Positions 9,401 to 24,955 of a DNA stretch of 25,123 nucleotides are shown here, piece after piece. Positions within the stretch are counted from its first letter, which is position 1, and each line of letters starts with the position of its first letter. Source of the DNA: a virus. A program made the translations under genes and the position numbers. Location: IMG/VR virus record IMGVR_UViG_3300012979_000178; one strand, 5' to 3'. Under the pieces are notes generated by a model. That model was not told where the DNA came from. It ran no database searches and worked only from the letters and a program-made list of their open reading frames with translations.

Positions 9401-9402
9401 AT

Positions 9403-9915: not shown

Positions 9916-9995
9916 TGTATAACGCTTATGTGACCACTTTAAAAAACGTACATAAACATCCTAATACCTTTTAAAAACATTTTAATGTAAAAAAT

Positions 9996-10042: not shown

Positions 10043-10076
10043 GAAAAAATATTTATTTTTAAAGGAGAAAATAAAA

Positions 10077-10811
10077 ATGCCTGAATTAAATTTAGCTGGA
10101 TCAAAAATAGGATTTTGGGATGTCTTAGAAAAAGATAGTGAAAAATCTAAAGAAAAACATTAGAGTTATTGGAAATGTAAATGTAATTTATGCGGAAATA
10201 TTTATTCTGTTAGAGGTTCAAGTTTAAATAATGGTCAAAGTCAAAAATGTGGAACCTGTTCTCGTTCTTACAATGTAAAAGATGAGACTGGGCAAAAATA
10301 TAATAAATTAACAGTTTTATATAAAACAGAGTCAAAAAATAATAGAGTAATGTGGAAATGTCGATGTGATTGTGGAAATCATATTGACGTAAGTGGAACT
10401 GATTTAAGGACTGGTGCAGTTAAATCTTGTGGAAAATGCCCAGGAAAAGAAAGCTTAGGAGAAAAATTAATTAGAGAAAAATTGACTCAATTTGGAATTG
10501 ATTTTATCCAAGAATATACTTTTAAAGATCTTATTTTTGAATCTGGTCATTATGCACGTTTTGATTTTTATATACCCTCTCATAATTATATAATAGAATT
10601 TGATGGTATCCAACATTTTAACTATGATAATAACTCTTCTTGGAATACAGAAAAAAATTTTTTAGAAACAAAAAAACGAGATAGTATAAAGAATAATTAT
10701 TGTTTTAATCATAATATTCCAATAATTAGAATTCCTTATGATTATAAAGAGGAGTTAACTGCTTTTGATTTAATTCCTCAAACTTCTAAATTTTTAATTA
10801 AGAAAGGGTGA
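10077..10811 (+). CDS. triple zinc-ribbon (W-x-C-x-C-x-CG ... SCGxC repeats) plus C-terminal DUF559/Vsr-like PD-(D/E)xK endonuclease domain; one in-frame TAG at 10161
   Basis: RBS AAAGGAGAAAAT and ATG at 10077. The frame is continuous with track ORF 10350..10811 apart from the TAG. The C-terminus reads FDFYIP..IIEFDGIQH ... RDSIK...NIPIIRIPY, which fits the DUF559 pattern. It is paralogous to 12336..13187. Confidence 0.6.
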
Positions 10812-10817
10812 AAAATA

Positions 10818-12248: not shown

Positions 12249-12265
12249 AGTCTTTGTGGGTATTT

Positions 12266-12302
12266 TTGATTAATTTTAAAGTCTTAAATGGCATAATATA
12301 AT
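12266..12302 (+). promoter_or_regulatory. promoter (TTGATT ... TGGCATAATATAAT) upstream of 12336
   Basis: An extended -10-like TGGCATAAT/TATAAT. It is flanked by an 11-bp direct repeat TTTAAAGTCTT. Confidence 0.4.
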
Positions 12303-12335
12303 GAAAGAAAAGTATTTTTAGAAAGGATTTATATT

Positions 12336-13187
12336 ATGCCATTTAAAGATAGAACTAATATAAAATATGGAAAATTAACTGCAAAAGAATATTTAGGTAA
12401 AAGTATGTGGAAATGCATTTGTGATTGTGGTCAAGAAAAAATCGTGTATGGAGGCCACTTGGAAAGTGGTCATACTTAGTCATGTGGTTGTATTCGTCCT
12501 CCAAGAACTAAATTATATGGACAAAAATTTGGTAGATTAACAGTATTAAACTGGGAAGGAAACGGCAAGTGGCGTTGTCAATGCGAATGCGGAAATGAAG
12601 TATTGGTTCAAACCGATAATTTAAAATCTGGCAATACCAAATCTTGTGGCTGCTTACAAAAAGACAAAGCAAGTGACGCATCATTCATTTCTCTTGTTGG
12701 TAATCGTTATGGAAAACTTTTAGTAATTGAACGAGTAGAAAATAATCGTTTTGGACATGTATGCTATCGCTGTAAGTGCGATTGTGGTGGTGAAACTATT
12801 GTTGATGCTACAAACCTACGTAATGGCAATACCAATTCCTGTGGTTGTATTAAATCCAAAGGAGAAATGATTATCAACAACTGGTTACTAGAACATAATT
12901 TCGATTTCCGCAGTCAATATTCTTTTGACGATTGTATTTTATCTACCGGCCGCAGACCTTTTTTCGACTTCGTTTTATTCAAGAATGATAAACCATATCT
13001 TGTGATAGAATATAACGGCCGCCAACATTACGAAGTAACCGGCGGATGGAACACAGAAGAGCAGTTTGCTAAAACACAACGCCGTGATAGCGAAAAACTA
13101 CAATGGTGTGAAGATAATCACTATCCAATATTGATAATAAAATATGATGAAGATATTGAAAAAATATTGGAGGAAAGATTATTATGA
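12336..13187 (+). CDS. paralogue of 10077..10811: triple zinc-ribbon plus DUF559/Vsr-like endonuclease; one in-frame TAG at 12477
   Basis: RBS GAAAGGATTTATATT and ATG at 12336. It is in frame with track ORF 12603..13187 and shares the repeat pattern W.C.C.CG...N(T/S)(K/N)SCGC. The C-terminus reads FFDFVLF...LVIEYNGRQH...RRDSEK. Confidence 0.6.
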
Positions 13188-13198
13188 GGAATTCCTAA

Positions 13199-13485
13199 TG
13201 AAATGTAATCGTTGCATAAATAAAAATACTGAATATTGCGAAACTTGTATTGACCATCCCAAATGGGCAAATAGACCTAAACAATCTAATTTTCAATTAT
13301 ATAAACCCACTTGTCCATTTGGATATAAAGATTGTATTAATGACCCCGCATATATTCTATGGAGTGATCCAGAATGGTATAAAGAATTATATAATACTTT
13401 ATCCCCAGAAGAAGCCGCAAAAGAAGAAGATGGAAGTTGCGGCTTATGCGATATGGGAAGTGATTATGATGATGAAGACAAATAA
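13199..13485 (+). CDS. Cys-rich small protein with an acidic C-terminus
   Basis: An ATG follows the previous TGA, preceded by a weak GAGG. There are CxxC clusters and a DYDDEDK tail. Confidence 0.45.
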
Positions 13486-13501
13486 AAAGGAGAAATAAAA
13501 A

Positions 13502-13618
13502 ATGAAACTTGACAAGACCTATATTGAAAATCGAATTGCTAATCTTGAAAGAAATTATACTCAAAATATTAATCTTATTAAAAAGTGGAAGCGTTATTTG
13601 CGCAGATGTGAGAAGTAA
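13502..13618 (+). CDS. small basic 38-aa protein
   Basis: Strong RBS AAAAGGAGAAATAAAAA. It ends at a TAA immediately before a terminator. Confidence 0.4.
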   Translation: MKLDKTYIENRIANLERNYTQNINLIKKWKRYLRRCEK

Positions 13619-13620
13619 GA

Positions 13621-13652
13621 AAAAGCGGGATATTCCCGCTTTTTTGTTTTTT
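13621..13652 (+). terminator. rho-independent terminator
   Basis: Stem AGCGGGA / TCCCGCT with a TAT loop, followed by a T-run. Confidence 0.8.
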
Positions 13653-13675
13653 ATAAATATTTATGGTATAATAAA
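13644..13675 (+). promoter_or_regulatory. conserved promoter copy 6 (-35 TTGTTT, extended -10 TGGTATAAT)
   Basis: Motif match upstream of pncA. Confidence 0.65.
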
Positions 13676-13695
13676 ATAAAAAAGGAATAAAAATA

Positions 13696-14253
13696 ATGAA
13701 GATTGTAATTGTTGTTGATTTACAAAATGATTTTATTACAGGCTCTCTTGGTTCCACCGAAGCGCAGGCTATTATTCCAAATGTAAAAGACCATCTGCGG
13801 TCATTAGATGAAAAAGATCATGTAATTTTTACCATGGATACTCATTTTGATGACTATCTTGAAAGCGGTACTTTGGAAAGCGAAAAGCTTCCCATTAAGC
13901 ATACCATTAAAGGAACTGATGGTTGGCTAATTTTTGAAGATTTAACCTCTTTGCCTCCGGGACCGCAGACATTGGCACCAAAGCAGACTTTTTGCTCTTG
14001 GGATTTTGATAGTGTTATTGTAGACGAAGTTTGTAATTATCTTAAAAATAATGAAAATCTTGAAAAAGATCTAGAATTTGAAATTTTTGGAGTTTGTACT
14101 GATATTTGCGTTGTTTCTATCGCCCTTTATCTAAGATCTTTTTATCCTAGTGTTAAAATCACTTGCCTTAAAGATCTTTGCGCGGGCTCTTCTCCTGCGG
14201 CACATGAAGCTGCTTTGACTGTTATGAAATCTTGTATGATTGATATTACGTAA
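13696..14253 (+). CDS. pncA: nicotinamidase (PncA), isochorismatase family
   Basis: N-terminal VVDLQNDF, a conserved Lys region (IKHTIKGTDGW) and GVCTDICV carrying the catalytic Cys. Confidence 0.75.
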   Translation: MKIVIVVDLQNDFITGSLGSTEAQAIIPNVKDHLRSLDEKDHVIFTMDTHFDDYLESGTLESEKLPIKHTIKGTDGWLIFEDLTSLPPGPQTLAPKQTFCSWDFDSVIVDEVCNYLKNNENLEKDLEFEIFGVCTDICVVSIALYLRSFYPSVKITCLKDLCAGSSPAAHEAALTVMKSCMIDIT

Positions 14254-14267
14254 ACGGAGGAATGATT

Positions 14268-15176
14268 ATGCCAGTACATGACGATCTTGGAACTCGCATG
14301 AAAGAGTTCTATGAACAAGTCCCACGTTTTCGATTAACTAGAAGAATGCCCGTGGTAATTAGACTCGACGGGAAATCCTTCCACACCTTTACACGCGGTT
14401 TTGAAAAGCCATTTGATGAAGTGCTTGGTAGAGCGATGCGAGAGACTATGAAATATCTTTGTGAGAATATTCAGGATTGCGTCCTTGGATATACTCAATC
14501 CGATGAAATTACTTTAATTCTTGTTGACTATAAAGAATTAAATAGTTCTGCTTGGTTTAATTATGAAATTCAAAAAATGTGTTCTATTTCTGCTTCTATG
14601 GCAACTATGGTATTTAATAAATTTTTTGAAAAAGAAGTTAATAAATGGACAAACCAAGCTTTTCCAACTGATTATTTAGGATATAATACTGGGAAAATTT
14701 CAGTTGCTGATATTGAACTAAAAGGTACTTATATAAAATCTCTCAATAAAGGCGCAATGTTTGATTCTCGTTGTTTTAACATTCCAAAAGAAGAAGTAGC
14801 CAATTTGATCTATTGGCGACAACTAGATGCTACGCGTAATTCTATTCAAATGGTAGGTCAAGCTAATTTCTCTCATAAAGAACTTCAAAATAAATCTTGT
14901 AATGATATTCAAAATATGCTTTTTGAAAAGAAAAATATTAATTGGAATGATTTCCCAACTCACTTAAAACGTGGCTCTTGTTGCGTTAAAATAGAGACTT
15001 CTACTGTTTTTGCTATCGAGCATGAAGACGGTACTGTTGAAACTGGTGCCGTTGAGCGACCTCATTGGGAAATTGATCTGGAAATTCCGATCTTCAAAAA
15101 TGAAGGACGAGAATATATTAATCGTCGTATTCTTTATAAAGAAAAGCCTGAAACAACTATTGCTTATATTAATTAA
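14268..15176 (+). CDS. Thg1-like protein (TLP), a 3'-5' nucleotidyltransferase acting in tRNA 5'-end repair or addition
   Basis: VVIRLDGKSFHTF...KPFD...DCVLGYTQSDEITL matches the Thg1 core (VVRLDGRNFHRF...AYGQSDEYSF). The start was chosen at 14268 because its spacing to GGAGG is better than for the ATG at 14262. Confidence 0.75.
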   Translation: MPVHDDLGTRMKEFYEQVPRFRLTRRMPVVIRLDGKSFHTFTRGFEKPFDEVLGRAMRETMKYLCENIQDCVLGYTQSDEITLILVDYKELNSSAWFNYEIQKMCSISASMATMVFNKFFEKEVNKWTNQAFPTDYLGYNTGKISVADIELKGTYIKSLNKGAMFDSRCFNIPKEEVANLIYWRQLDATRNSIQMVGQANFSHKELQNKSCNDIQNMLFEKKNINWNDFPTHLKRGSCCVKIETSTVFAIEHEDGTVETGAVERPHWEIDLEIPIFKNEGREYINRRILYKEKPETTIAYIN

Positions 15177-15180
15177 AAAT

Positions 15181-15219
15181 AAAATCCTCTTATATTTTAA
15201 GAGGATTTTTGTTTTTTAT
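15181..15219 (+). terminator. rho-independent terminator
   Basis: A 12-bp stem AAAATCCTCTTA / TAAGAGGATTTT followed by a T-run. Confidence 0.8.
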
Positions 15220-15244
15220 AAAAAAATATGATATAATATATATA
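15209..15244 (+). promoter_or_regulatory. conserved promoter copy 7; near-identical to copy 3
   Basis: Sequence TTGTTTTTTATAAAAAAATATGATATAATATATATAGAAAA. Confidence 0.7.
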
Positions 15245-15271
15245 GAAAATAAAAAAAAGGAATTTATAAAA

Positions 15272-15433
15272 ATGAATCTTGATGATACAATTAAAAGAAT
15301 AAAAAGCGATGTTGCCGAGATTAGTTCTAAAATGATGACTGGAAAAACTATTGAAGAACAAGTTAAAGAAATTGTACTAAAAGATAGTGGTAAAAAAGTA
15401 AAAAATTCTATTATAGGTAAAAATATAAAATGA
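15272..15433 (+). CDS. small 53-aa hypothetical protein
   Basis: RBS AAAAGGAATTTATAAAA and ATG at 15272, which is in frame within track ORF 15209..15433. Its TGA overlaps the next start. Confidence 0.4.
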   Translation: MNLDDTIKRIKSDVAEISSKMMTGKTIEEQVKEIVLKDSGKKVKNSIIGKNIK

Positions 15434-15960
15434 ATAATTTTCAAAAATTTTTTGGTCACTTACACACAGTAAATAAACATCGCTTTATAGTTTGTAAACT
15501 ATGCTTTAAATGCGGTTTATATTGGCAAGGACTTACCCATGATCTTTCTAAATATTCGCCAGTAGAATTTATCAATGGTGTAAAATTTTATACTGGAAAA
15601 GCCTCTCCTCATCTTGGTGAACGAAAAGCATATGGATATAGCAAGGCTTGGTTAAATCACAAAGGACGCAATAAGCACCATGGAGAATATTGGCAAGATA
15701 TTGGATCAGATGGATTTACTCATCCCATTGATATGCCAAAAAATTATCTTATTGAAATGATTTGTGATAGAGTCGCGGCTTCAATGATTTATCTTGGAGA
15801 AAATTATACAGATAAAGCACCTTTGGAATATTATCAAAGCCATAAAGATGAAAATCAATTTAGTGATTATACAAGATTTTATTTAGAAGAATATTTAACA
15901 AATATCGCTAATTATGGTTTTGATGCTGCTATGAAGAGTAAAACTACATATAAATGCTAA
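15430..15960 (+). CDS. small HD-domain-like phosphohydrolase
   Basis: H...H (GHLHTVNKH), then THDLSK about 28 aa later, then HHGEYWQD...D. This fits HD motifs I-V. Confidence 0.55.
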   Translation: MNNFQKFFGHLHTVNKHRFIVCKLCFKCGLYWQGLTHDLSKYSPVEFINGVKFYTGKASPHLGERKAYGYSKAWLNHKGRNKHHGEYWQDIGSDGFTHPIDMPKNYLIEMICDRVAASMIYLGENYTDKAPLEYYQSHKDENQFSDYTRFYLEEYLTNIANYGFDAAMKSKTTYKC

Positions 15961-15987
15961 CTATTAAATAAGCTAGGAGAAAATTAA

Positions 15988-16440
15988 ATGAAACTTGAAA
16001 TTGATCTTGATCTTAATAAAATTGACTATGATTCTATTAATAAATAGATAAAACAAAAAATTGAAGATTTAGATATTGCTAATGTTTATACTATTGATGA
16101 TAGAATTAAAAATGAATTAAATGCTCAGATTAGCCAAGTAATTAATGAAAATATGTATCGAAATTATTGGTCTAATACATTAGATAATAAAACCGAAGGA
16201 CATATTCAAGACGAGCTAAGAATTCTCATTAAAGAAGCAATAACCCCATCAGTGAATAATGTTTTTAATAAAATTTCAGAAGAAGAAATAGAAAAAATGA
16301 TTTTACATATTCTTCCGAAAGCATTAGTTATGCTACTGATAGATAATCTTAAAGGTTCACTTTATTCTTTACAAAATGACCAAACCTACTTAATGGAATC
16401 AGTTATAGAAAATCATATAAACCGTAGATTAAATAGATAA
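15988..16440 (+). CDS. hypothetical protein with one in-frame TAG at 16045
   Basis: Strong RBS AGGAGAAAATTAA and ATG at 15988. It is in frame with track ORF 16153..16440. Confidence 0.5.
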
Positions 16441-16454
16441 GGAAATTAATAATT

Positions 16455-17690
16455 ATGATGAAACTTTCTCCTATTATTACTCATCTTACCGATACTGACC
16501 TTTATAAATTTACTATGTTACAGACTATGTTTCATAGACATACAAATCTTAATGGCACTTATCTTTTTAAATGCCGAAACGCAGGAGTTAAATTTACCAA
16601 AGAAATGATGGATGAGATCAATGCGCAGATTGATCATCTTTGTACTTTGCGCTTTACAGATGAAGAACTTGATTATCTTGGCTCTTTACGCTTTATTAAG
16701 CCTGATTTTATTGAATTTCTTCGCATTTGGCATCCTTTGCGCAGATATGTAAATTGTTATATTTATGATCATCCGGGATGTCCAGATGAAGGAGAACTTT
16801 TTGTCGAAGTTCATGGTCCACTCTTTAACACTATGATGTTTGAAATTTATCTTCTTGCTATTGTAAATGAAGTATATTTTCGTATGAAGTATAATTATCT
16901 TGACCTCATTAATGGCGCGAGAGAAAAACTTTACCACAAACTTAGCGGATTTAATCATTTTGATGAAGAAGGCAATAAAGCCCCTCTCTATACTTTTAAA
17001 TTTGCGGAATTTGGTACCAGAAGAAGATTAAGTCGTGAATGGCAGGATTATGTAATGAAAGAACTTATTGCTACTGGATATTGCGCCGGTACCTCTAACG
17101 TATATCTTGCTATGAAATATGGTATCAAAGCAATTGGTACTTATGCGCATGAATATGTTCAGATGTTTCAGGGTATTCCCGGCATTCAGCTTGCTTATAC
17201 CAACAAAGCCGCTCTTGAAGAATGGTTTGAAGAATATCAGGGCGACCTTGGAACTGCATTGACTGATACTCTTGGCACTGATATTTTTCTTCGTGATTTT
17301 AATAAACTTCAAGCTATGTGTTATACCGGAGTACGTCATGATAGTGGAGATCCTTATGAATGGGGCGAAAAGATTATCGAACACTATCTTAAACTCGGCA
17401 TCGACCCCAAAACCAAAACTCTTCTTTTTAGTGATAGTCTCGATTTTGAAAAAGCACAGGCAATTTATGACCATTTTAATGGGCGTATTAATGTAAGTTT
17501 TGGTATTGGTACTTATCTTACTAATGACACAGGAGTAAATCCCCTCAATATCGTTATTAAACTTCAGTATGTAAATGATCATCCAGTAGCAAAATTAAGC
17601 GACGTAGAAGGCAAAACTATGTGCCAAGATGAAAATTATGCTAATTACTTGGCACGCGCAGTTAATTATAGATTAGAAGAAGGTATTTAA
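16455..17690 (+). CDS. pncB: nicotinate phosphoribosyltransferase (PncB)
   Basis: It tracks E. coli PncB closely: TDLYKFTM, FGTRRRLSREWQ, GTSNVYLA, GTYAHE, RHDSGDP.EWGEK, GIDPKTK.LLFSD, FGIGT.LT, PLNIVIKL, PVAKLSD. Confidence 0.9.
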   Translation: MMKLSPIITHLTDTDLYKFTMLQTMFHRHTNLNGTYLFKCRNAGVKFTKEMMDEINAQIDHLCTLRFTDEELDYLGSLRFIKPDFIEFLRIWHPLRRYVNCYIYDHPGCPDEGELFVEVHGPLFNTMMFEIYLLAIVNEVYFRMKYNYLDLINGAREKLYHKLSGFNHFDEEGNKAPLYTFKFAEFGTRRRLSREWQDYVMKELIATGYCAGTSNVYLAMKYGIKAIGTYAHEYVQMFQGIPGIQLAYTNKAALEEWFEEYQGDLGTALTDTLGTDIFLRDFNKLQAMCYTGVRHDSGDPYEWGEKIIEHYLKLGIDPKTKTLLFSDSLDFEKAQAIYDHFNGRINVSFGIGTYLTNDTGVNPLNIVIKLQYVNDHPVAKLSDVEGKTMCQDENYANYLARAVNYRLEEGI

Positions 17691-17691
17691 T

Positions 17692-18204
17692 ATGAATTTC
17701 ATTTTTCGAGGATTCGAAATAAATCCAAAAGGCAAGGAAAAAATTTATATCAACAATAAAGAACTTCTAGGTGATTGGCACGAAGGATATTTTACTCGAT
17801 ATGCGAGAACTGCTGTCGTAGGAGTCCCTGTAATTGAAACAGAATGGGATAGTTATGTTATTGATGAACGAACCATTTGTCCTTGCCTTTCTTATATTGA
17901 TTCTAAAGGAAAACATTTTGGTCATATGGACATAATCACTTGTATTGACGCAAATGATGAAATTGATAAATTTTTACTTCAATGGAATAGTGAGGGACAA
18001 GAATTCCAAGTTATTTTCTTAAATTGCCAAGAAAAATTATATGGAACTAATACAAGCTATTTTATTAGTTTTGATTTTTTTGATTGGGCTGAATTTGTAG
18101 CAAACGTTCTTCAAAATATCCACGGAATTTATAAATCTATTGAAATAACTAATAATGCTTTTTCTGATCCTAATTTTTTTAAAAAAGGAATTATTCCGTG
18201 GTAA
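17692..18204 (+). CDS. hypothetical protein translationally coupled between pncB and nadM
   Basis: Its ATG lies 1 nt after the pncB TAA. I recognised no motif. Confidence 0.6.
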   Translation: MNFIFRGFEINPKGKEKIYINNKELLGDWHEGYFTRYARTAVVGVPVIETEWDSYVIDERTICPCLSYIDSKGKHFGHMDIITCIDANDEIDKFLLQWNSEGQEFQVIFLNCQEKLYGTNTSYFISFDFFDWAEFVANVLQNIHGIYKSIEITNNAFSDPNFFKKGIIPW

Positions 18205-18236
18205 TAATAAATTAAAAATCAAATGAGGTATAATAA

Positions 18237-18800
18237 ATGTTTGGAGCAATTTTGTTTAGGGCACAGCCCTTTCACAATGGACATTTGCATATGATTAAAA
18301 CTGCTTATGCCGATTGTAAAAAATTTGGTATAGATTTATATATTTTTATTGGTAGCGCAGATAAATATGGTACTAAAAGAAATCCTTTACCTATTGAGCT
18401 AAGAAGAAATTTAGTAATTAATTCTTTAAATGAATATTTTTCTGAAGAAGAATTAAATCATATTTATGTATTTACTCTTGATGATCTTAGCGATGAAGCA
18501 AATAACACTTACGCTTGGGGAGATTATTTATATATTAAAATGTGTTCTAAAGCTAATGATCCAGAATTTATTTTTTACTATAGTGATAAACCTTCTATTG
18601 TGTTAAGTTGGTTTGCTCCAGATTTATGTAAAAATATAATGTATAAATTTTTACCGCGTTATCATACAATTAATGCTACTGCAATAAGAGAAGCTATTAT
18701 TGATAATGAATTTTGTCCTAATTGGTTGGAATATGATATACCAGAAACGGTAATAGCAGAATACAATACTATCAGAGAATATTTATTGGAGGCTATTTAA
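18237..18800 (+). CDS. nadM: NadM-type nicotinamide/nicotinate mononucleotide adenylyltransferase (cytidylyltransferase fold, HxGH)
   Basis: FRAQPFHNGHLHMIK and IFIGSADK...NPLP match archaeal NadM (GRFQPFHKGHL; IGIGSAQ). Confidence 0.75.
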   Translation: MFGAILFRAQPFHNGHLHMIKTAYADCKKFGIDLYIFIGSADKYGTKRNPLPIELRRNLVINSLNEYFSEEELNHIYVFTLDDLSDEANNTYAWGDYLYIKMCSKANDPEFIFYYSDKPSIVLSWFAPDLCKNIMYKFLPRYHTINATAIREAIIDNEFCPNWLEYDIPETVIAEYNTIREYLLEAI

Positions 18801-19531
18801 TGAAAGATTTAGTGCAAGATATAATTAAATGGATTAAAGAATATTTTGAAATGTCCCCTCCTAATACAAAAGCAGTAATTGGGATTTCCGGAGGCAAAGA
18901 TTCAACCATTGCTACTGCGCTTTTGGTTGAAGCCTTAGGTAAAGATAGAGTAATTGGAGTACGAATGCCCCAGGGTGTTCAATCTGATATTGATATGGCT
19001 AGAGAAGTATGTGATTATTTTGGTATTGAATCTTATGAAATCAATATTGGAAATATTTGTGAAACTTTATATCAGACTATTGGAGAAAATTATAAAGAAA
19101 ATCCAGTAGTTTCTACTAATACTCCAGCAAGAATACGTATGACTATTCTATATGCTATTGCTGGAATGTATAATGGTAGAGTTGTTAATACTTCAAATGC
19201 TTCTGAAATTTTTATAGGTTATTCAACTAAAAATGGCGATGGCGCAGGAGATTTTAGTATTACACGCGATTTTACTGTAAGAGAATTAAAAAAAATCGGT
19301 TATTATCTTGGACTTCCTAAAAAATTTATTGACAAAATTCCCGAAGATGGAATGAGTGGTAAGACTGATGAAGAAAAATTAGGTTTTTCATATGAGGTAA
19401 TAGATGATATTTTGATGTATAATGAATTTCCTGATGAAGCTCTTACCCAAAAGATTACTAATTTATACACCAAAAATTTACATAAAATTTCTCCAATGCC
19501 ATATTATTATAATAAGGGGTATTTAGAATGA
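18800..19531 (+). CDS. nadE: NH3-dependent NAD+ synthetase (NadE)
   Basis: PP-loop GISGGKDS; overall NadE-like. The start overlaps the nadM stop. Confidence 0.85.
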   Translation: MKDLVQDIIKWIKEYFEMSPPNTKAVIGISGGKDSTIATALLVEALGKDRVIGVRMPQGVQSDIDMAREVCDYFGIESYEINIGNICETLYQTIGENYKENPVVSTNTPARIRMTILYAIAGMYNGRVVNTSNASEIFIGYSTKNGDGAGDFSITRDFTVRELKKIGYYLGLPKKFIDKIPEDGMSGKTDEEKLGFSYEVIDDILMYNEFPDEALTQKITNLYTKNLHKISPMPYYYNKGYLE

Positions 19532-19977
19532 TTAATAAATTTGAAGGAGATTATGAATTTTTAAGTAATTTTTTCTTTTCTCCTTTTTCTTTTAAAGGAA
19601 TTGAATATCCAACTAATGAACATTTCTTTCAAGCTATGAAAACTGTTGATCGAAATCTTCAAAAAGCAATTGCTCAGGCGCCAACCCCGGGTAAAGCTAA
19701 AAGATTAGGACGTCAAGTAAATTTAATACCGGATTGGGAAACTATTAAAGACGCCGTAATGTATCAAGGACTAAAATTAAAATTTTCTGATCCAATTCTT
19801 AAAGAAAAACTTTTAGCAACAGGAAATGAAAAATTAGAAGAAGGAAATTGGTGGCATGATAATTTTTGGGGTAATTGCTACTGCCCAAAGTGTAAAAACA
19901 TTGAAGGGGTAAATAAACTTGGCAAATTACTTATGCTTCTTAGAAAGGAGCTAAAAAATGAACAAAGCAACACGTAA
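19528..19977 (+). CDS. NADAR (YbiA-like) domain protein
   Basis: F.G.Y.FLSNF..S.F...G..Y.T.EH.FQA.K...AK..GR...W, which is the NADAR pattern. ATGA overlap with nadE. Confidence 0.75.
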   Translation: MINKFEGDYEFLSNFFFSPFSFKGIEYPTNEHFFQAMKTVDRNLQKAIAQAPTPGKAKRLGRQVNLIPDWETIKDAVMYQGLKLKFSDPILKEKLLATGNEKLEEGNWWHDNFWGNCYCPKCKNIEGVNKLGKLLMLLRKELKNEQSNT

Positions 19978-20233
19978 ATGGCACATTTGGGATTCACCAA
20001 AAAAGAATTTACCTTTATGCTGGGATGGACAAGTTTTAGTTTTTGATACCAAAGAATCTGCTATAGATTTTTTACATTCTGCTATTGCCCATCAAGAAGA
20101 TTTAGATAAAGAATTTGATAAAGCAATTATTTCTTGTGGTTTAATTAATCCTATTAATCCAACTATTAATGCAACATATAAACGAATTAAATATAATTCA
20201 GATTTTAATATAATTTATCTTGAAGATATTTAA
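19958..20233 (+). CDS. hypothetical protein of 91 aa
   Basis: RBS AAGGAG. It is the last gene before the terminator. Confidence 0.5.
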   Translation: MNKATRKWHIWDSPKKNLPLCWDGQVLVFDTKESAIDFLHSAIAHQEDLDKEFDKAIISCGLINPINPTINATYKRIKYNSDFNIIYLEDI

Positions 20234-21342: not shown

Positions 21343-21816
21343 ATGAAAAAAATTTATTTACTTTGTGGTATTCCCGGTTCAGGAAAAAGCACTTGGGCAA
21401 AAAGCCAACTTGATAATAAATCTGTCTGGATTTCAAGAGATCAGATAAGATTCTCTATGGTTTCAGAGTCAGAAGAATATTTCTCTAAAGAAAAAGAAGT
21501 ATTTCGAGAATTTATTAAAGAAATTAATTTAGCAATTAGAAATAAAAATTTTGATAATATTTATATAGATGCAACACATCTTAACACTATAAGTAGATAT
21601 AAAGTTTTGGATAAAATTGCTTTAAAAGATGTTGATGAACTTAATATTATTTTCTTTAATACCCCTTTGAATATTTGTCTCGAAAGAAACTCTTATCGTT
21701 TTGGAAGAGAAAAAGTACCAGAAGAAGTAATTAAAAAAATGTATAAAACTGTTGTTCCTCCTCATCTTGATGATAAATATTTATATAATAATATTATAGT
21801 AAAAGGAGATGAATAA
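21343..21816 (+). CDS. pnk: polynucleotide 5'-kinase, a P-loop domain of the T4 Pnk kinase type
   Basis: LLCGIPGSGKST (Walker A), RD (catalytic Asp region), and a C-terminus with LERNSYRFGREKVPEEVIKKMYK that resembles T4 Pnk ([22 protein letters not shown]). Confidence 0.8.
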   Translation: MKKIYLLCGIPGSGKSTWAKSQLDNKSVWISRDQIRFSMVSESEEYFSKEKEVFREFIKEINLAIRNKNFDNIYIDATHLNTISRYKVLDKIALKDVDELNIIFFNTPLNICLERNSYRFGREKVPEEVIKKMYKTVVPPHLDDKYLYNNIIVKGDE

Positions 21817-21922: not shown

Positions 21923-22861
21923 ATGTATAGTGTATATAAAATTACCAATATTATAAATTAGAAAAATTATATTGGTTCAAGTATTAGACCTGAAAAGCGT
22001 TGGAAAGAACATATTAATAATGCTAATAACCCAAATTCATAGGCATATAATTATCCGTTACAATGTGCTTTTCGAAAATACGGAATTGAAAATTTTAATT
22101 TTGAAATTTTAAAAGATGATTTTAATACTCAAAGTGAAATGACAGAATATGAATAGTTAATGATTATTTTTTATGATTCATTGAATAATGGGTATAATCA
22201 AACTTTACAAACAAATTAGAGTGAAATAGCAAAAGAAAATTTAGAAAAATATTTATAGACAATTCGTTGTAAATGTGCTAAAATAGATAAAAATAATAAT
22301 ATTTTAGAAATTTATAATTCTTATCATGAAGCTGCTAAAAAAAATGGAATGGATCCTGATAATTGTGCTAGTTCAATTAGAGATGTTTGTAAAGGAAAAA
22401 CTTCAAGTGCTAAAGATAAATTTATTTTTCGAGATTTAGATGCTAATGATAATATAATTATTTAGCCGTTTAAACCCTATAAAGGCAAAAAAGCAATAAT
22501 TGGTATTCATATAGAAACAAAAGAAGAAATTTATTTTAATTCTATTAGTGAAGCAGCTAAAATATTAAATACAGATCGTTGGAGTATAACCCAATGTATA
22601 CAAGGAGTATCTCGATACTCCAAAGTTAAAAACTATATATTTAGAGAATTAGATTAGAATGGCAATATTGTAGAAGTTGAAAATTCCATAGAAAATATTT
22701 TACAAAAATATAATTAGACAAATCCGGAAATAAATGGTGAAAGACACACTTTTAAAGACTGGTGTAAAATTTATGGAATTTCTGAAAGTTCTGTTAGAAA
22801 AAGAATAAAAAAAGGAATGGGTGTTGTAGAAGCAATTACAACCCCAAAAGAGAGGTGATTT
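21923..22861 (+). CDS. GIY-YIG homing endonuclease (I-TevI/Seg-like) with 8 in-frame TAG codons
   Basis: The N-terminus VYKITNIIN*KNYIGSS...EKRWKEHI corresponds to the GIY-YIG and RWKEH motifs (compare I-TevI IYQIKNTLNNKVYVGS...EKRWKRHF), followed by NGYN. The frame is continuous for 313 codons apart from the TAGs. It ends at the TGA at 22859. Confidence 0.7.
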
Positions 22862-22863: not shown

Positions 22864-23429
22864 ATGGCAATCTGGATTACTTCAGATTGGCATTAGTTTA
22901 TTTTTGCCATGACAGAGAATTTATCTGGGGTCCAAGGCATTTTAATTCTGTTGAAGAAATGAATGAAACTATTGTAGATAGACATAATTCTTTGGTTCTT
23001 CCAGAAGATGATGTATATGTATTGGGCGATTTGATGCTTAATGATAATGAAAAAGGTATTGAATTAATTAAGCGTATGAATGGTAAACTTCATATTGCTA
23101 TTGGAAACCATGACACAGCACCAAGAATTGAATTGTATAAAACTTTACCGAATTTAGTAGATATTAATTACGTTCACACATTTAAATATAGAAAATATAA
23201 TTTCTATTGTTCTCATTATCCTACATTAACAGGAAATCTTGAAGCTGAATCGCTTCATCAAGTAGCAATTAATCTATATGGACATACTCATCAGTCGAGT
23301 AAATTCTATGAAGATAGACCATATATGTTTCATTGTGGTATGGATTCAAATGCTTGTTATCCTGTAAATATTGATTACATTATTGATAAGTGTAAAAATA
23401 AAGTGGCTGAATGCATTGAAATGCTTTAA
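22864..23429 (+). CDS. calcineurin-like metallophosphoesterase with a frame disruption after codon 10. It is a possible pseudogene, sequencing indel or recoding site.
   Basis: RBS AGAGAGG and ATG at 22864 give MAIWITSDWH (motif I D-x-H), then a TAG. The remaining motifs (GDLML, GNHD, GHTH) are in the -1 frame, which is track ORF 22887..23429. Confidence 0.55.
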
Positions 23430-23466
23430 TTAGTTCATTTAAAATTTAATATATAAGGAGAAAATT

Positions 23467-24906
23467 ATGTATCTTTATCTTATTCCAATTGCCGTTATTG
23501 CTGTTATTGTTCTCTTTTGCCTCGGTTATGTAAAGGCTCCTCCGGATCAGGCTTATGTAATTTCCGGGATGATGAAGAAACCTCGTATTCTAATTGGACG
23601 AGCAGGTTTTAAAGTTCCTTTCTTTGAACGTCTTGACAAACTTGCTCTTGGTGCTATTCAGATTGATGTAAAGACTGCTAGTTCGGTTCCCACTGCTGAA
23701 TATATCAATGTAAGAGTTGATTCTAATGTAAATGTAAAAATTGGTCAGGCTCCTGAAATGCTTGAACTTGCTTGTCAGAATTTTCTTAATGTAAAGAGAG
23801 ATGTTATCAATCAGAAGATCAGAGATTTGCTCGAAGGTAATATCCGTGAAATCGTTGGTAGCATGAAGCTTACTGAAATGGTAAGTGATAGAAAGGCTTT
23901 TTCTGAAAAGGTACAGGAAAACGCAGTACCCGATCTTGCGAGATTTGGTCTTGAGCTTATTTCTTTTAATGTTCAGAATTTTGTAGATGATAATGGTGTA
24001 ATTGATAATCTTGGTATTGATAATGTAGAGCAGATTCGCAAGAAGGCTGCTATTGCTAAGTCTGATGCCCAGAGAGAAATTGCAATTGCTGAAGCTGAAA
24101 ATACTAAAATTGCAAATGATGCTCGTGTAAAGGCGGCTGAAGAAATTGCTGCCCGAGACAATGATCTTGAAATTAAGCAGGCGGCTCTTAAGCAGGCAGC
24201 TGATACTGAAAAGGCTCGTGCAGCAGCTGCTATGGCAATCGAATCTGAAAATCAGAATAAACTTAAAAATATTGCAGCTACGGATGCTGAAATTGCAAAG
24301 GCTGAACGCGAAGCCGATCTGAAGCAGAAAGAAATCGAACTGAAAGAATATGAACTTGACGCTCTTGTCCGCAAGCAGGCAGACGCAGATAAATATGCAG
24401 TAGAGCAGAAGGCAGCCGCAGAACTTGCTGTTCGTCAGAGAAAAGCAGAAGCTGAAAAGTTTGAACGTGAACAGCGTGCAGAAGCTGAAAAGTTTGCAGC
24501 AATTCAGGAAGCAGAAGCAGAAAAAGCAAAGGCTGATGCCGCTAAATATGCCGCACTTGCAGAAGCAGAAGGTATTGCCGCTGTAAAGAAAGCTGAAGCA
24601 GAAGGTATTCGTGCTACTGGTATTGCAGAAGCAGAAGGTATTGAAAAGAAGGCAGAAGCCCAGAAGAAGATGGGTGAAGCTTCCGTTCTTGAAATGTACT
24701 TCCAGATGCTTCCGAACGCTGTAGCAAGTGCTGCCGCACCTCTTGAAAATGTTGGAAACATTACAATGTATGGCGACGGCAATCAATCTAAGCTCGTCGG
24801 CGACGTAATGAAGACTGTAAATCAGGTTACCGAAGGTATGAAAGCTAACGGTATTGATATCGCGTCACTTATTGCTGGCGCACTCTCCAAGAAAGACAGT
24901 AAGTAA
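23467..24906 (+). CDS. floT: flotillin (FloT/YuaG-type SPFH/band-7 protein): N-terminal TM segment, SPFH domain, and an E/A-rich coiled coil
   Basis: RBS AAGGAG. It is collinear with B. subtilis FloT: LEGNIREIVGSMKLTEM...FSEKVQ...DLARFGLELISF; KQADADKYAVEQKAAAE; MLPNAVASAAAPLENVGNIT. Confidence 0.85.
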   Translation: MYLYLIPIAVIAVIVLFCLGYVKAPPDQAYVISGMMKKPRILIGRAGFKVPFFERLDKLALGAIQIDVKTASSVPTAEYINVRVDSNVNVKIGQAPEMLELACQNFLNVKRDVINQKIRDLLEGNIREIVGSMKLTEMVSDRKAFSEKVQENAVPDLARFGLELISFNVQNFVDDNGVIDNLGIDNVEQIRKKAAIAKSDAQREIAIAEAENTKIANDARVKAAEEIAARDNDLEIKQAALKQAADTEKARAAAAMAIESENQNKLKNIAATDAEIAKAEREADLKQKEIELKEYELDALVRKQADADKYAVEQKAAAELAVRQRKAEAEKFEREQRAEAEKFAAIQEAEAEKAKADAAKYAALAEAEGIAAVKKAEAEGIRATGIAEAEGIEKKAEAQKKMGEASVLEMYFQMLPNAVASAAAPLENVGNITMYGDGNQSKLVGDVMKTVNQVTEGMKANGIDIASLIAGALSKKDSK

Positions 24907-24914
24907 AAATAAAT

Positions 24915-24955
24915 AAGTAAGGAAGATTTTATTCTTCCTTACTTTGATTTTTCTT
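24915..24955 (+). terminator. rho-independent terminator
   Basis: Stem AAGTAAGGAAGA / TCTTCCTTACTT with a 6-nt loop, then a T-rich tract. Confidence 0.75.

What the first reader, a model, noticed from the sequence alone, without database searches (positions are those of the whole stretch)
23467..24906. FloT-type flotillin encoded by the phage; the second SPFH-fold scaffold in the window together with the MVP-like protein
This gene is collinear with Bacillus FloT, with an N-terminal membrane hairpin, an SPFH domain, an E/A-rich coiled coil and a C-terminal MLP..A..AAAPL block. It has its own RBS and terminator and elevated GC. Flotillins organise membrane microdomains. A phage copy could remodel host membrane platforms, for example for assembly or lysis timing, superinfection exclusion, or interference with membrane-associated defence effectors. 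The MVP shoulder domain is also SPFH-like, so two SPFH scaffolds in one phage is notable.
Basis: partly seen in the sequence, partly recalled or inferred. Interest (0 to 1): 0.55.

Follow-up and report, generated by a model that had tools for sequence, protein, structure and literature searches.

The report
Phage-carried flotillin membrane scaffold gene
A large gut or rumen bacteriophage carries an intact copy of flotillin, a protein bacteria use to organise and protect their cell membrane; many related phages keep it or swap it for a different protein of the same fold, so they appear to need a membrane scaffold of their own, for a reason nobody has tested.

Summary
Window 23467..24906 (+) encodes a 479-aa full-length flotillin: an N-terminal hydrophobic helix, an SPFH/Band_7 domain, an Ala/Glu-rich coiled coil and a Flot C-terminal domain. 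It aligns end to end with human flotillin-1/2 (E 3e-41). It has an AAGGAG ribosome-binding site (RBS) and a 12-bp hairpin terminator.

It is phage-encoded, not host flank. Every relative of at least 62% identity that I examined, except one bacterial locus (L026), sits in the same synteny inside 100-200 kb viral contigs.

New here:
- The gene is a self-contained RBS-ORF-terminator cassette at an insertion hotspot.
- In sibling genomes 94% identical in the flanks, a non-orthologous 323-aa SPFH protein (phrog_200) replaces it at the same breakpoints.
- dN/dS is 0.07-0.19.
- Phage flotillins fall into at least three groups, two of them next to flotillins of different Clostridia families.
- An MVP-like gene co-occurs, and lies 2.4-3.5 kb away in nine related loci.
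- The clade reads TAG as a sense codon in some genes.
- The raised GC is mostly amino-acid composition.
- The last 74 codons are a foreign module, or an assembly join.

Function is inferred only. I favour an SPFH cage that keeps the host membrane working during infection. This is a new member of a known kind, of moderate interest.

The parts
23455..23460 (+). Ribosome-binding site AAGGAG, 6 nt upstream of the ATG
   Evidence: Read directly. The same AAGGAG motif precedes the flotillin gene in all 13 clade-A loci inspected.
23467..24906 (+). Flotillin gene, 479 aa, no in-frame TAG, stop TAA
   Evidence: dN/dS is 0.07-0.19 for close pairs.
23470..23529 (+). N-terminal hydrophobic membrane anchor (aa 2-21, YLYLIPIAVIAVIVLFCLGY)
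   Evidence: Sequence. The AF2 model gives a single helix at aa 5-20, pLDDT about 80. Hairpin versus transmembrane topology is not decidable here.
23533..24072 (+). SPFH / Band_7 domain (aa 23-202)
   Evidence: Pfam PF01145 E 3.9e-20. This is the best-conserved part within the phage clade, 79% mean identity.
24073..24624 (+). Ala/Glu-rich coiled-coil region (aa 203-386)
   Evidence: AF2 helices 202-272 and 277-386. It aligns with the flotillin-1 coiled coil.
24577..24804 (+). Flot (PF15975) C-terminal flotillin domain (aa 371-446), including the QMLPNAVASAAAPL block
   Evidence: Pfam 34.5 bits against a cut-off of 27. It forms the second stretch aligned with flotillin-1 residues 311-416.
24681..25123 (+). 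Divergent 3' module: the last 74 codons of the flotillin gene, the terminator and the start of the next gene. Either a recombinant segment or an assembly join.
   Evidence: Nucleotide identity to the closest relatives falls from 93-100% to about 60% or less at about 24681 and stays low to the contig end. Amino-acid identity is 45% here against 95-100% upstream. GC3 is 0.45 against 0.25 in the rest of the gene.
24915..24952 (+). Intrinsic-terminator-like hairpin (12-bp stem, 6-nt loop) with a T-rich tail
   Evidence: Every clade-A locus has a strong hairpin plus T tract right after the flotillin gene, each with a different sequence.
22865..23429 (+). Metallophos_2 phosphoesterase (phrog_547), the conserved upstream neighbour. 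In this window its N-terminus is disrupted by an 8-nt insertion.
   Evidence: The 8-nt insertion is shared with L004 and absent from L001 and L002.
21343..21816 (+). AAA_33 kinase, a conserved member of the upstream Metallophos / kinase / Metallophos_2 run
   Evidence: Pfam E 3.5e-16. Syntenic in all clade-A loci.
3231..5780 (+). MVP-like (major vault protein-like) gene, 849 aa, the second SPFH-related scaffold
   Evidence: MVP_shoulder E 1.1e-20 and Vault_3 E 3.7e-7. PDB MVP E 5.8e-17. At least 15 of 27 IMG/VR MVP contigs also carry a flotillin. The two genes lie 2.4-3.5 kb apart in nine related loci.

Best explanation
SHOWN. The gene encodes a complete flotillin: membrane anchor, SPFH domain, coiled coil and Flot C-terminal domain. 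It sits on the genome of a large phage (about 140-200 kb, AT-rich, partly TAG-recoded) of gut or rumen Clostridia. It is a self-contained RBS-ORF-terminator cassette at an insertion hotspot between a phosphoesterase gene and a conserved downstream element. It is under purifying selection. In sibling genomes a different SPFH-family protein replaces it at the same breakpoints. Its nearest bacterial relatives are Oscillospirales flotillins.

INFERRED. The phage lineage captured a host-type flotillin. During infection the protein is made from the phage genome, inserts its N-terminal helix into the cytoplasmic membrane, and oligomerises through its SPFH and coiled-coil regions. This would give the cage-like membrane assemblies seen for flotillin, HflK/C, stomatin and prohibitin.

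MY COMMITTED READING. It acts as a membrane-homeostasis or resilience factor. It would supply the fluidising, complex-stabilising and damage-buffering role that host flotillins normally provide under the envelope-stress response. That supply would not depend on host gene expression, so the membrane stays energised and intact until programmed lysis. This would also blunt membrane-damaging abortive-infection effectors. It fits the gene's neighbours, which repair other kinds of defence-inflicted damage: NAD+ salvage, RNA ligase, Thg1 and a kinase/phosphoesterase pair.

The identity, the phage origin and the cassette behaviour are near certain. The physiological role is a minority-probability best guess; the confidence given here (0.4) refers to that role.
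For: Identity.

Phage context and synteny. A tail-fibre-like ORF with in-frame TAGs lies in the window itself. tRNA arrays and a tRNA(CUA) occur in related loci.

Selection: dN/dS 0.07-0.19. Flotillin identity across clade A is 62-91%, while the adjacent kinase falls to 31% and the adjacent Metallophos_2 phosphoesterase to 37%.

The SPFH function itself appears to be what is selected:
- L223 (flotillin, 3843..5433) and L221 (323-aa Band_7 / phrog_200 protein, 4398..5430) have 94%-identical flanks.
- More distant relatives carry another Band_7 gene elsewhere.

Phylogeny: phage flotillins fall into at least three groups. Clade A is sister to Oscillospirales flotillins in 80 of 100 bootstraps. 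Group B is nested in Lachnospiraceae flotillins in 99 of 100. Group C is a separate deep branch.

Gene company: the window carries PncA, NAPRTase, a NadD-like gene, NadE, NADAR, RNA ligase, Thg1, a kinase and phosphoesterases. An unrelated cultured T5-like phage, Vibrio phage KIT04, places its Band_7 'flotillin family protein' next to a Metallophos gene, RNA ligase, PRPP synthase and NAPRTase.

Literature:
- B. subtilis floA and floT belong to the sigma-W envelope-stress regulon, which is triggered by stressors including phage infection, and flotillins and YdjI fluidise and protect the membrane (PMC8581546).
- FloT (YuaG) oligomerises and is tethered by its N-terminal hydrophobic segment (PMC4312047).
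Against: There are no expression, localisation or phenotype data. The argument from neighbouring genes is weak:
- Another gut phage (csAssE-Sib) has its flotillin inside a replication module.
- The closest relatives of the window lack nearby lysis or defence-related membrane genes.

The gene is dispensable in part of the wider group. Several relatives have no SPFH gene at this site.

No PADLOC model matches it. That says nothing about counter-defence in either direction.

The C-terminal domain is the most variable part in phages (47% mean identity, against 81-86% in the bacterial groups compared). This could mean partner-specific adaptation rather than a generic housekeeping role.

The viral status of the contigs rests on IMG/VR classification and gene content. 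No capsid or terminase gene lies in the stretches I could read.
Confidence: 0.4

Rival explanations
1. Partner-sequestering cage, on the HflK/C model. The phage SPFH assembly encloses or regulates a particular host membrane protein, most plausibly the FtsH protease or another quality-control or secretion machine. This would stabilise phage proteins or redirect host proteolysis.
For: The fold search returns the HflK/C-FtsH complexes 7wi3 and 9cz2, and QmcA, at E about 1e-11. The alternative cassette also hits phrog_11227, labelled 'protease', over its coiled-coil region. The fast-evolving, mosaic C-terminal module would suit co-evolution with a partner. HflK/C control of FtsH and lambda CII stability is textbook knowledge (my own knowledge, not tested here).
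Against: No protease, NfeD or other partner gene is linked to the cassette in any lineage. Two non-orthologous SPFH proteins substitute for each other, which argues against a highly specific partner interface.
Confidence: 0.15
2. Dedicated counter-defence. The scaffold specifically neutralises membrane-disrupting abortive-infection effectors (pore-forming or depolarising), completing a toolkit that also restores NAD+ and repairs tRNA.
For: The window is dense in repair-type genes: NAD salvage, NADAR, RNA ligase, Thg1, a kinase, phosphoesterases and a hit to a PHROG family labelled RecBCD nuclease inhibitor. The same company recurs in Vibrio phage KIT04 and in phage groups B and C. Presence or absence at a hotspot is typical of accessory genes of this kind.
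Against: This is purely associative. There is no PADLOC or known anti-defence homology. The context in csAssE-Sib differs. Strong conservation of the whole host-like architecture fits a generic flotillin activity at least as well.
Confidence: 0.15
3. Control of lysis timing or superinfection exclusion. The scaffold changes membrane domains so that holin triggering is delayed, or so that DNA injection by competing phages is blocked.
For: In several clade-A lineages an amidase endolysin and a small protein with hydrophobic segments lie 2-5 kb downstream. In KIT04 the holin and endolysin lie about 6 kb upstream. The host dynamin DynA delays phage lysis by acting on the membrane (PMC8844932).
Against: The closest relatives of the window (L001, L004) have no lysis genes near the flotillin. 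Linkage is loose and inconsistent.
Confidence: 0.1
4. Joint cage system. Flotillin and the MVP-like protein act together to build a phage-specified, vault-like compartment at or near the membrane.
For: At least 15 of 27 MVP-bearing IMG/VR contigs also appear among the top 80 flotillin contigs. The two genes are 2.4-3.5 kb apart in nine loci spanning two flotillin groups, with the gene order reversed between them. Both belong to the SPFH-related fold family.
Against: In the window they are 17.7 kb apart with about 20 unrelated genes between them. Huge phages carry an MVP-like gene but gave no flotillin hit. Contigs of the sibling group in which the two SPFH cassettes alternate are absent from the pattern-limited MVP list. 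No interaction was tested.
Confidence: 0.1
5. The gene is not a functional phage gene: bacterial DNA, an assembly artefact, or a decaying passenger.
For: The last 440 bp of the contig diverge from the closest relatives, with the breakpoint inside the gene at a universally conserved motif. This could be an assembly join. One true bacterial flotillin (L026) nests inside the phage clade.
Against: The same intact ORF occurs in conserved synteny in dozens of independent assemblies. dN/dS is 0.07-0.19. An RBS and a terminator are maintained in every lineage.
Confidence: 0.03

Closest known systems
Bacterial flotillin FloT/YuaG (Bacillus subtilis) and the Clostridia flotillins
   Same: The domain order is the same: N-terminal hydrophobic tether, SPFH/PHB domain, Ala/Glu-rich coiled coil, Flot C-terminal domain. 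It is 51-57% identical to Lachnospiraceae, Oscillospiraceae and Ruminococcus flotillins. NF058507 is the only NCBIfam hit.
   Different: It is encoded by a phage and carried as a mobile cassette. It scores far below the FloT equivalog cut-off (232.7 against 700 bits). Its C-terminal module is hypervariable compared with the bacterial groups examined. There is no NfeD-type neighbour, although the Clostridia loci I inspected lack an adjacent one too.
Eukaryotic flotillin-1/2 complex (PDB 9bq2, 9l3g)
   Same: It aligns over the full length (E 3e-41) and these are the top structural matches (E 3.5e-20, 28% identity over about 450 columns).
   Different: The eukaryotic proteins form hetero-oligomers. 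From my own knowledge, they are lipid-anchored by acylation rather than by an N-terminal helix. Whether the phage protein forms a closed cage, and with what stoichiometry, is unknown.
Phage SPFH proteins of PHROG family phrog_200 (labelled 'lipoprotein'; Band_7 proteins noted in RaK2-like jumbo phages and others)
   Same: They have the SPFH fold, a membrane anchor and no known function in phages (PMC7760394, PMC13239085). A phrog_200 member occupies exactly the flotillin site in sibling genomes.
   Different: They are about 320 aa, prohibitin/HflC-like, and lack the Flot C-terminal domain. The window protein matches phrog_200 only weakly (E 2.6e-8).
Flotillin family proteins annotated in complete phage genomes: Vibrio phage KIT04 (LC487410.1) and phage csAssE-Sib (OR575929.1)
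   Same: They are phage-encoded flotillin-like proteins of 473 and 566 aa. KIT04's lies beside Metallophos, RNA ligase and NAD-salvage genes, as here.
   Different: KIT04's protein is only about 22% identical to the window protein over aa 17-316, and csAssE-Sib was not among the window protein's hits. KIT04's protein has no Pfam Flot domain hit. Phage families and hosts differ. I found no functional study of either.
Phage major vault protein homologues (bioRxiv 10.1101/2023.11.10.566534)
   Same: The window's MVP-like protein has the shoulder domain, cap-helix region and a vault repeat, and occurs in gut Caudoviricetes that the preprint links to Bacillota hosts.
   Different: I did not establish whether the preprint mentions a linked flotillin: my text search for that term failed and only its abstract and Results were read. 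Here the two genes co-occur and are often neighbours.

Membership tests
SPFH (stomatin/prohibitin/flotillin/HflK/C) superfamily | Band_7/SPFH alpha/beta domain detectable by profile and by fold | tested here: met
   Pfam PF01145 E 3.9e-20, 73.1 bits against a cut-off of 23.6. Foldseek hits to flotillin, HflK/C, stomatin, prohibitin, erlin and QmcA at E 1e-20 to 1e-8.
Flotillin family (reggie/FloT type) | Flot C-terminal domain (PF15975) following the SPFH domain and coiled coil | tested here: met
   PF15975 34.5 bits against a cut-off of 27, aa 371-446. Precomputed Pfam annotation lists it for all but two of the 120 close homologues shown.
Flotillin family (reggie/FloT type) | Full-length collinearity with structurally solved flotillins | tested here: met
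   Flotillin-1 (9bq2_B) E 3.1e-41: query 25-351 aligns with chain 6-333, and query 365-465 with chain 311-416.
Flotillin family (reggie/FloT type) | N-terminal membrane tether (a hairpin in YuaG/FloT, PMC4312047) | tested here: inconclusive
   A 20-residue hydrophobic segment is present and is modelled as one helix, aa 5-20. Hairpin versus single-pass topology needs experiment.
Flotillin family (reggie/FloT type) | Assembly into large homo- or hetero-oligomeric membrane cages or microdomains | not testable with these tools
   Only a monomer model could be made. The SPFH and coiled-coil regions that mediate oligomerisation in known members are conserved.
FloT equivalog (NCBIfam NF058507, 'flotillin lipid rafts scaffold protein FloT') | Whole-protein score at or above the curated cut-off of 700 bits | tested here: not met
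   232.7 bits, E 9.3e-69, best stretch aa 17-321. It is related to FloT but is not an equivalog.
SPFH-NfeD operon partners | Adjacent NfeD-family membrane protein gene | tested here: not met
   The upstream neighbour is a Metallophos_2 phosphoesterase, and the downstream gene starts with a signal-peptide-like hydrophobic stretch. No NfeD gene lies next to the cassette in any phage locus, nor next to the Clostridia flotillins I inspected.
Phage-encoded (not host-flank) gene | Embedded on both sides in conserved phage synteny across independent long contigs | tested here: met
   Supported by TAG recoding, homing endonucleases and a tail-fibre-like ORF. No capsid or terminase gene lay within reach.
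Known anti-phage defence components (PADLOC) | Match to a defence-system protein model | tested here: not met
   No PADLOC hit for the flotillin, the MVP-like protein, the kinase or the phosphoesterase.
Major vault protein family (for window 3231..5780) | MVP repeat, shoulder domain and cap-helix region | tested here: met
   MVP_shoulder E 1.1e-20 and Vault_3 E 3.7e-7. Rat and human MVP E 5.8e-17 over query aa 464-812. The N-terminal repeats were not individually verified.

The most novel reading that the evidence does not exclude
These phages deliberately build SPFH-type protein cages in the infected cell. A membrane-anchored flotillin (or a replacement SPFH protein) and a cytoplasmic vault-like MVP shell would act as one phage-specified compartment or shield system. 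It would sequester a host factor or protect the membrane from abortive-infection effectors. That would be a new class of phage counter-defence or organelle based on the SPFH/vault fold.
Probability: 0.1. Interest if true: 0.85.

Novelty: new member of a known kind. Interest (0 to 1): 0.5.

Why it matters
What bacterial flotillins do is still debated: raft scaffold, fluidity regulator or protease cage. A widespread group of large gut and rumen phages keeps a host-type flotillin under purifying selection. Phage flotillins also fall into at least three phylogenetic groups. Sibling genomes carry an unrelated SPFH protein at the same site. Together these points suggest that the generic SPFH scaffold activity gives a fitness benefit during infection. 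That offers a natural gain-of-function and loss-of-function system, sibling phages with flotillin, with the other SPFH protein or with neither, for asking what SPFH cages do to a bacterial membrane under stress. If the link to repair-type counter-defence genes or to the MVP-like protein is real, it would point to membrane protection or caging as an unrecognised phage strategy. If not, this is an ordinary host-derived accessory gene.

Tried and rejected
1. Near-identity search of the whole window against 50,697 phage records: no match. The source phage is uncultured.

2. Host-flank or prophage-edge origin: rejected on synteny.

3. GC elevation as evidence of recent horizontal transfer: rejected. 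GC1 and Ala/Glu content explain it, and GC3 is near that of other genes. dS above 1 between lineages shows long residence in phages. Only the last 74 codons have anomalous GC3.

4. Flotillin as a fixed core gene of the clade: rejected by the GyrB-anchored survey.

5. NfeD or protease partner next to the gene: none.

6. Defence-system homology: none.

7. Promoter scan: a TTGAAA-18-TAAAAT site at 23416..23445 exists. Promoter-like sites are no more frequent than in shuffled sequence (21 found against 18.4 expected), so it is not used as evidence.

8. Rfam scan of the window and three loci for the conserved element downstream of the cassette: no family.

9. tRNA scan of the window: none.

10. TGA recoding: no signal in clade A.

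11. Small 'phage' records for Enterococcus and Listeria with about 33% identical flotillins: unannotated 1.5-20 kb records, not used as evidence for phage flotillins.

12. The WIN-L010 dN/dS value (0.70) is unreliable. Its pN of 0.53 is inconsistent with the 76% amino-acid identity of the pair, so it was ignored.

13. The phylogeny is neighbour-joining on 97 sequences sampled by similarity to the query. Sister-group statements are therefore tentative.

14. A text search of the phage-MVP preprint for 'flotillin' and 'SPFH' failed on a term-length error and was not repeated.
Full report
WHAT IS THERE

Window 23467..24906 (+) is a 479-codon ORF with an ATG start and a TAA stop. AAGGAG lies 6 nt upstream of the start. 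A 12-bp hairpin with a T-rich tail follows at 24915..24944.

Pfam finds Band_7/SPFH (E 3.9e-20, aa 23-202) and the flotillin C-terminal domain Flot (34.5 bits against a cut-off of 27, aa 371-446). The only NCBIfam hit is the FloT model, but at 232.7 bits against a curated cut-off of 700. phmmer against PDB sequences aligns the protein over nearly its whole length with human flotillin-1 and -2 (E 3e-41 and 8e-35).

An AlphaFold2 model has moderate confidence: mean pLDDT 67.5, and 72-86 over most of the SPFH domain. It shows one N-terminal helix (aa 5-20), an alpha/beta SPFH domain, two very long helices (202-272 and 277-386) and a small helical C-terminal part. Its best structural matches are the flotillin complexes 9l3g and 9bq2 (E 3.5e-20). 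HflK/C, stomatin, QmcA, prohibitin and erlin follow. Major vault protein chains also match, at about E 1e-7.

'Hairpin' cannot be verified. B. subtilis YuaG was shown experimentally to use a hairpin although a transmembrane helix was predicted (PMC4312047).

IS IT PHAGE DNA?

The window is a whole 25,123-bp metagenome contig with no near relative among deposited phage genomes. The big protein collection holds hundreds of flotillins 72-91% identical to it.

I looked up four of them, on contigs of 142, 168, 175 and 184 kb. All lie deep inside the contig in one synteny. A Metallophos / AAA_33 kinase / Metallophos_2 run precedes the flotillin. In three of the four, NAD-salvage genes (isochorismatase, NAPRTase or NAMPT, NAD synthase; NADAR in two) lie further upstream. 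Small ORFs follow the flotillin, sometimes with PhoH and an amidase. GyrB lies downstream in all four. RNase H is called upstream of GyrB in three of them, GyrA follows GyrB in those three, and in two GyrA is split by a GIY-YIG endonuclease and followed by an NAD-dependent ligase.

A marker search over 105 loci showed that every locus with at least 62% flotillin identity has this synteny, with one exception. IMG/VR holds 227 viral stretches encoding relatives. Most of the best 80 lie on 100-200 kb viral contigs. Two 'MAG' hits at 62-63% identity (L027, L028) are mis-binned phage contigs.

The window itself carries several phage-type features:
- HNH and GIY-YIG homing endonucleases.
- Genes that match PHROG families.
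- A 652-codon ORF at its 5' end sharing a domain with annotated tail-fibre proteins and with an Oscillospiraceae phage.

Related loci carry tRNA arrays. I could not reach a capsid or terminase gene, because only 10 kb flanks are retrievable.

A SIDE DISCOVERY THAT AFFECTS GENE CALLING

Several gaps in the ORF map close if TAG is read as a sense codon. Plus-strand coding density in the window rises from 0.76 to 0.89. It rises by 0.06-0.18 in most clade-A loci. Reading TGA as sense adds only 0.01-0.03. Low-GC bacterial control loci gain less than 0.01 with TAG as sense.

With TAG read as Gln, window 21923..22858 becomes a full-length GIY-YIG/NUMOD homing endonuclease containing 8 in-frame TAGs. 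A related locus encodes a tRNA with anticodon CUA. The flotillin gene has no in-frame TAG and ends in TAA, so its boundaries do not depend on the code.

EVOLUTIONARY BEHAVIOUR

The nearest genuinely bacterial flotillins are 51-57% identical. They come from Lachnospiraceae, Oscillospiraceae and Ruminococcus, including the isolates R. flavefaciens YL228 and Dorea sp. 5-2.

A neighbour-joining tree of 97 sequences with 100 bootstraps gave three results:
1. Clade A. The window's phage clade is monophyletic together with one bacterial sequence, L026, in 91 of 100 replicates. It is sister to an Oscillospirales group in 80 of 100.
2. Group B. A second IMG/VR group is nested among Lachnospiraceae flotillins in 99 of 100.
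3. Group C. A third IMG/VR group is a separate deep branch in 100 of 100.

L026 is true bacterial DNA at 60% GC, flanked by RpiB, cytochrome c552, ResB/CcsA and FtsW genes. It is either a phage-to-bacterium transfer or the nearest sampled member of the donor lineage.

The three-group pattern suggests that large Clostridia phages captured or exchanged flotillins more than once. Sampling was by similarity to the query and the method is simple, so this is tentative.

Within clade A the gene is under purifying selection, with dN/dS of 0.07-0.19 for unsaturated pairs. It is better conserved than its neighbours. Flotillin identity is 62-91%, while the kinase falls to 31% and the Metallophos_2 phosphoesterase to 37%.

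Conservation is uneven along the protein:

| Region | Phage clade A | Bacterial groups compared |
|---|---|---|
| SPFH domain | 79% | 91-96% |
| Coiled coil | 70% | 87-91% |
| C-terminal 74 aa | 47% | 81-86% |

THE CASSETTE

I anchored a survey on the downstream GyrB gene, so that loci were retrieved whether or not they carry a flotillin. The flotillin turned out not to be universal.

In one group of sibling genomes (GyrB about 70% identical to the query), the site between the Metallophos_2 gene and a conserved 142-154-aa gene holds one of two things. Eight loci carry a flotillin. Four loci carry a 323-aa protein that is Band_7 (E 4.3e-27) and matches PHROG family phrog_200 over its full length (E 2.6e-46).

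L223 and L221 are 94% identical up to a point just before each gene's RBS. They are 94% identical again from just after each gene's terminator. Only the 1.6-kb flotillin unit and the 1.0-kb SPFH unit differ.

Two other related genomes (L214, L215) have a homing-endonuclease-like ORF interrupted only by in-frame TAGs at the site. More distant relatives have nothing there. Some of those carry another Band_7 gene about 9 kb upstream of GyrB.

All 13 clade-A loci I inspected keep an AAGGAG RBS and a strong hairpin plus T tract around the flotillin, with unrelated hairpin sequences. The gene is therefore a self-contained expression cassette at a hotspot. Two non-orthologous SPFH proteins are interchangeable there. 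This is the best evidence that the SPFH scaffold activity itself is what these phages use.

THE WINDOW'S OWN COPY IS MOSAIC

Up to nucleotide about 24680 the window is 93-100% identical to its closest relatives over most of the gene (one internal stretch is 73-88% identical to L004). From 24681 to the contig end identity drops to about 60% or less. The last 74 residues are 45% identical to those of L001 and L004, against 95-100% for aa 21-405. GC3 is 0.45 in that module and 0.25 in the rest of the gene. The best match anywhere for the module is 67%.

The breakpoint sits in the universally conserved KKAEAQKKMGEAS motif. It is either natural recombination that swapped the C-terminal module, terminator and downstream gene, or a metagenomic assembly join 440 bp from the contig end. 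Read mapping would decide.

THE GC ARGUMENT

The gene's GC is 0.417 against 0.30 for the rest of the window. GC1 is 0.62, reflecting 18% Ala and 10% Glu. GC3 is 0.28, close to the MVP-like gene and NAPRTase at 0.25-0.26. Apart from the 3' module, composition gives no sign of recent foreign origin.

THE MVP-LIKE GENE

Window 3231..5780 encodes an 849-aa protein with MVP_shoulder (E 1.1e-20) and Vault_3 domains. It matches rat and human MVP at E 5.8e-17.

Co-occurrence and spacing:
- IMG/VR has 27 contigs with relatives of 56-73% identity.
- At least 15 of these also appear in the truncated top-80 flotillin list.
- In seven clade-A loci the MVP-like gene ends 3-3.5 kb upstream of the flotillin.
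- In both group-C loci it starts 2.4-3 kb downstream of the flotillin.
- In the window the two genes are 17.7 kb apart.

Pfam Band_7 itself hits the shoulder region of the L022 MVP-like protein (E 1.1e-9). Huge phages of 462-735 kb also carry a 38%-identical MVP-like gene but gave no flotillin hit.

Phage MVPs have already been described in a preprint (10.1101/2023.11.10.566534). I did not establish whether it mentions flotillin, because my text search for that term failed. A functional link remains unproven.

WHAT IS KNOWN ABOUT PHAGE SPFH PROTEINS

Literature searches found SPFH-domain proteins noted in RaK2-like jumbo phages, where one was detected in a virion proteome, and in other phages. 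Their function is explicitly described as unknown (PMC7760394, PMC13239085). I found no functional study of a phage flotillin.

Two complete phage genomes carry annotated 'flotillin family proteins':
- Vibrio phage KIT04 is T5-like. Its Band_7 protein lies beside a Metallophos gene, an RNA ligase, PRPP synthase and NAPRTase. This is the same company as in the window, although the phage is unrelated.
- Phage csAssE-Sib has its copy inside a replication module, after a transmembrane protein.

HOW IT MOST LIKELY WORKS

Shown: a complete, selected, independently expressed flotillin on a phage genome, interchangeable with another SPFH protein.

Inferred: it anchors in the cytoplasmic membrane of the infected cell and oligomerises into SPFH assemblies, as all characterised family members do.

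The role I favour, at roughly 0.4, is membrane homeostasis. In B. subtilis, floA and floT are in the sigma-W envelope-stress regulon, which is triggered by stressors that include phage infection. Flotillins and the related YdjI fluidise and protect the membrane (PMC8581546). A phage that shuts down or outlasts host expression could profit from supplying this function itself. The surrounding genes mostly undo damage: NAD+ salvage, NADAR, RNA ligase, Thg1, a kinase and phosphoesterases.

Rival readings are a cage that regulates FtsH or another specific partner, dedicated protection against membrane-acting abortive infection, control of lysis timing or superinfection exclusion, and a joint system with the MVP-like protein. 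None is excluded. The interchangeability of two different SPFH proteins argues against a very specific partner. The fast-evolving C-terminal module argues for some partner or self-assembly specificity.

VERDICT

The finding is real and correctly identified. The protein is a new phage member of the flotillin family, not a new kind of system. Phage flotillin genes are already annotated in databases, though unstudied.

This analysis adds the clade-wide distribution, the cassette swap between two SPFH families, the multi-group phylogeny, the recurring proximity to an MVP-like gene, the mosaic 3' end, and TAG recoding in the host phage.

Interest is moderate (0.5). It would rise sharply if the SPFH and MVP proteins were shown to act as a phage-built cage or as membrane counter-defence.

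Noticed in passing
window 159..635, 646..2601, 10077..10811, 12336..13187, 21923..22858; related loci L001, L004, L214, L240: In-frame TAG codons appear to be read as sense (code 15-like recoding) in a subset of genes. With TAG as Gln, a full GIY-YIG/NUMOD homing endonuclease (8 TAGs) and a 652-codon tail-fibre-like ORF (7 TAGs) are restored. Plus-strand coding density rises from 0.76 to 0.89. A tRNA with anticodon CUA lies in related locus L240 at 8362..8458. Standard ORF calls therefore miss or truncate these genes.
   Followed up: partly
window 22865..22900 (start of the Metallophos_2 gene 22887..23429): An 8-nt insertion (ATTAGTTT) after about codon 10 frameshifts the N-terminus of the phosphoesterase and removes its first metal-binding motif (SDWH). 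The same insertion is in L004 from an independent assembly. L001 and L002 are intact. It looks like a real lineage-specific disruption rather than a sequencing error.
   Followed up: partly
window 24681..25123: The last 440 bp of the contig diverge from the closest relatives (about 60% or lower nucleotide identity, against 93-100% just upstream). This stretch covers the flotillin C-terminal module, the terminator and a new downstream gene that starts at 25005 with a signal-peptide-like sequence (MMKKLLSLLLALTLTVSVAFA). The breakpoint lies in a conserved motif, so it is either recombination or an assembly join.
   Followed up: partly
L001 ~11480..11560, L004, L005, L008, L010, L012, L015, L016, L027, L214, L221 ~5470..5520, L223 ~5470..5520 (not present in the window): A conserved GC-rich element of about 60 nt ending in ...CC(C/T)ATAGCAAATTTTTT... 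occurs in the 13 related loci listed, lying between the flotillin/SPFH region and the conserved 142-154-aa gene and immediately after the cassette terminator where that was checked. The downstream breakpoint of the flotillin/SPFH cassette swap lies at its start. It has no Rfam match. It could be a promoter or regulatory element, or a recombination site.
   Followed up: partly
L221 4398..5430 (also L225, L227, L241) versus L223 3843..5433: A 323-aa Band_7 protein of PHROG family phrog_200 replaces the flotillin at identical breakpoints in sibling phage genomes whose flanks are 94% identical.
   Followed up: yes
window 13696..20233: A near-complete NAD+ salvage set lies here: isochorismatase/nicotinamidase-like, NAPRTase, a NadD-like cytidylyltransferase-fold protein, NAD synthase and NADAR. 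A Thg1-like gene (14262..15176) lies within the stretch and an RNA ligase (10818..12248) lies just upstream of it. Together they look like a block of damage-repair or counter-defence-type genes.
   Followed up: no
window 6188..6505: A small ORF matches PHROG family phrog_6234, labelled 'host RecBCD nuclease inhibitor' (E 7e-10, aa 12-47 only).
   Followed up: no
L256 (Vibrio phage KIT04, LC487410.1) 6941..15014: An unrelated cultured T5-like phage has a 473-aa Band_7 'flotillin family protein' followed within 7 kb by a Metallophos gene, an RNA ligase, PRPP synthase and NAPRTase. This is the same gene company as in the window.
   Followed up: partly
L022 5596..12486; L023 9884..16325: In a third, deep-branching group of viral contigs the flotillin lies 2.4-3 kb upstream of an MVP-like gene. 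In L022 the shoulder region of that gene is hit by both MVP_shoulder (E 1.1e-19) and Band_7 (E 1.1e-9), and an RNA ligase follows. L023 also has a 9-gene tRNA array.
   Followed up: partly
L026 7983..9512 (uncultured Clostridiales RUG166, 60% GC): A genuinely bacterial flotillin, flanked by cytochrome c552, ResB/CcsA and FtsW genes, nests inside the phage flotillin clade at 65% identity to the window protein. It is either a phage-to-bacterium transfer or the closest sampled member of the donor lineage.
   Followed up: partly
H11-H13 (LR756500, LR756501, LR756503; uncultured huge phages, 462-735 kb): These carry a 38%-identical full-length MVP-like gene, so vault-protein homologues extend to megaphages. 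No flotillin hit was seen in these records.
   Followed up: no
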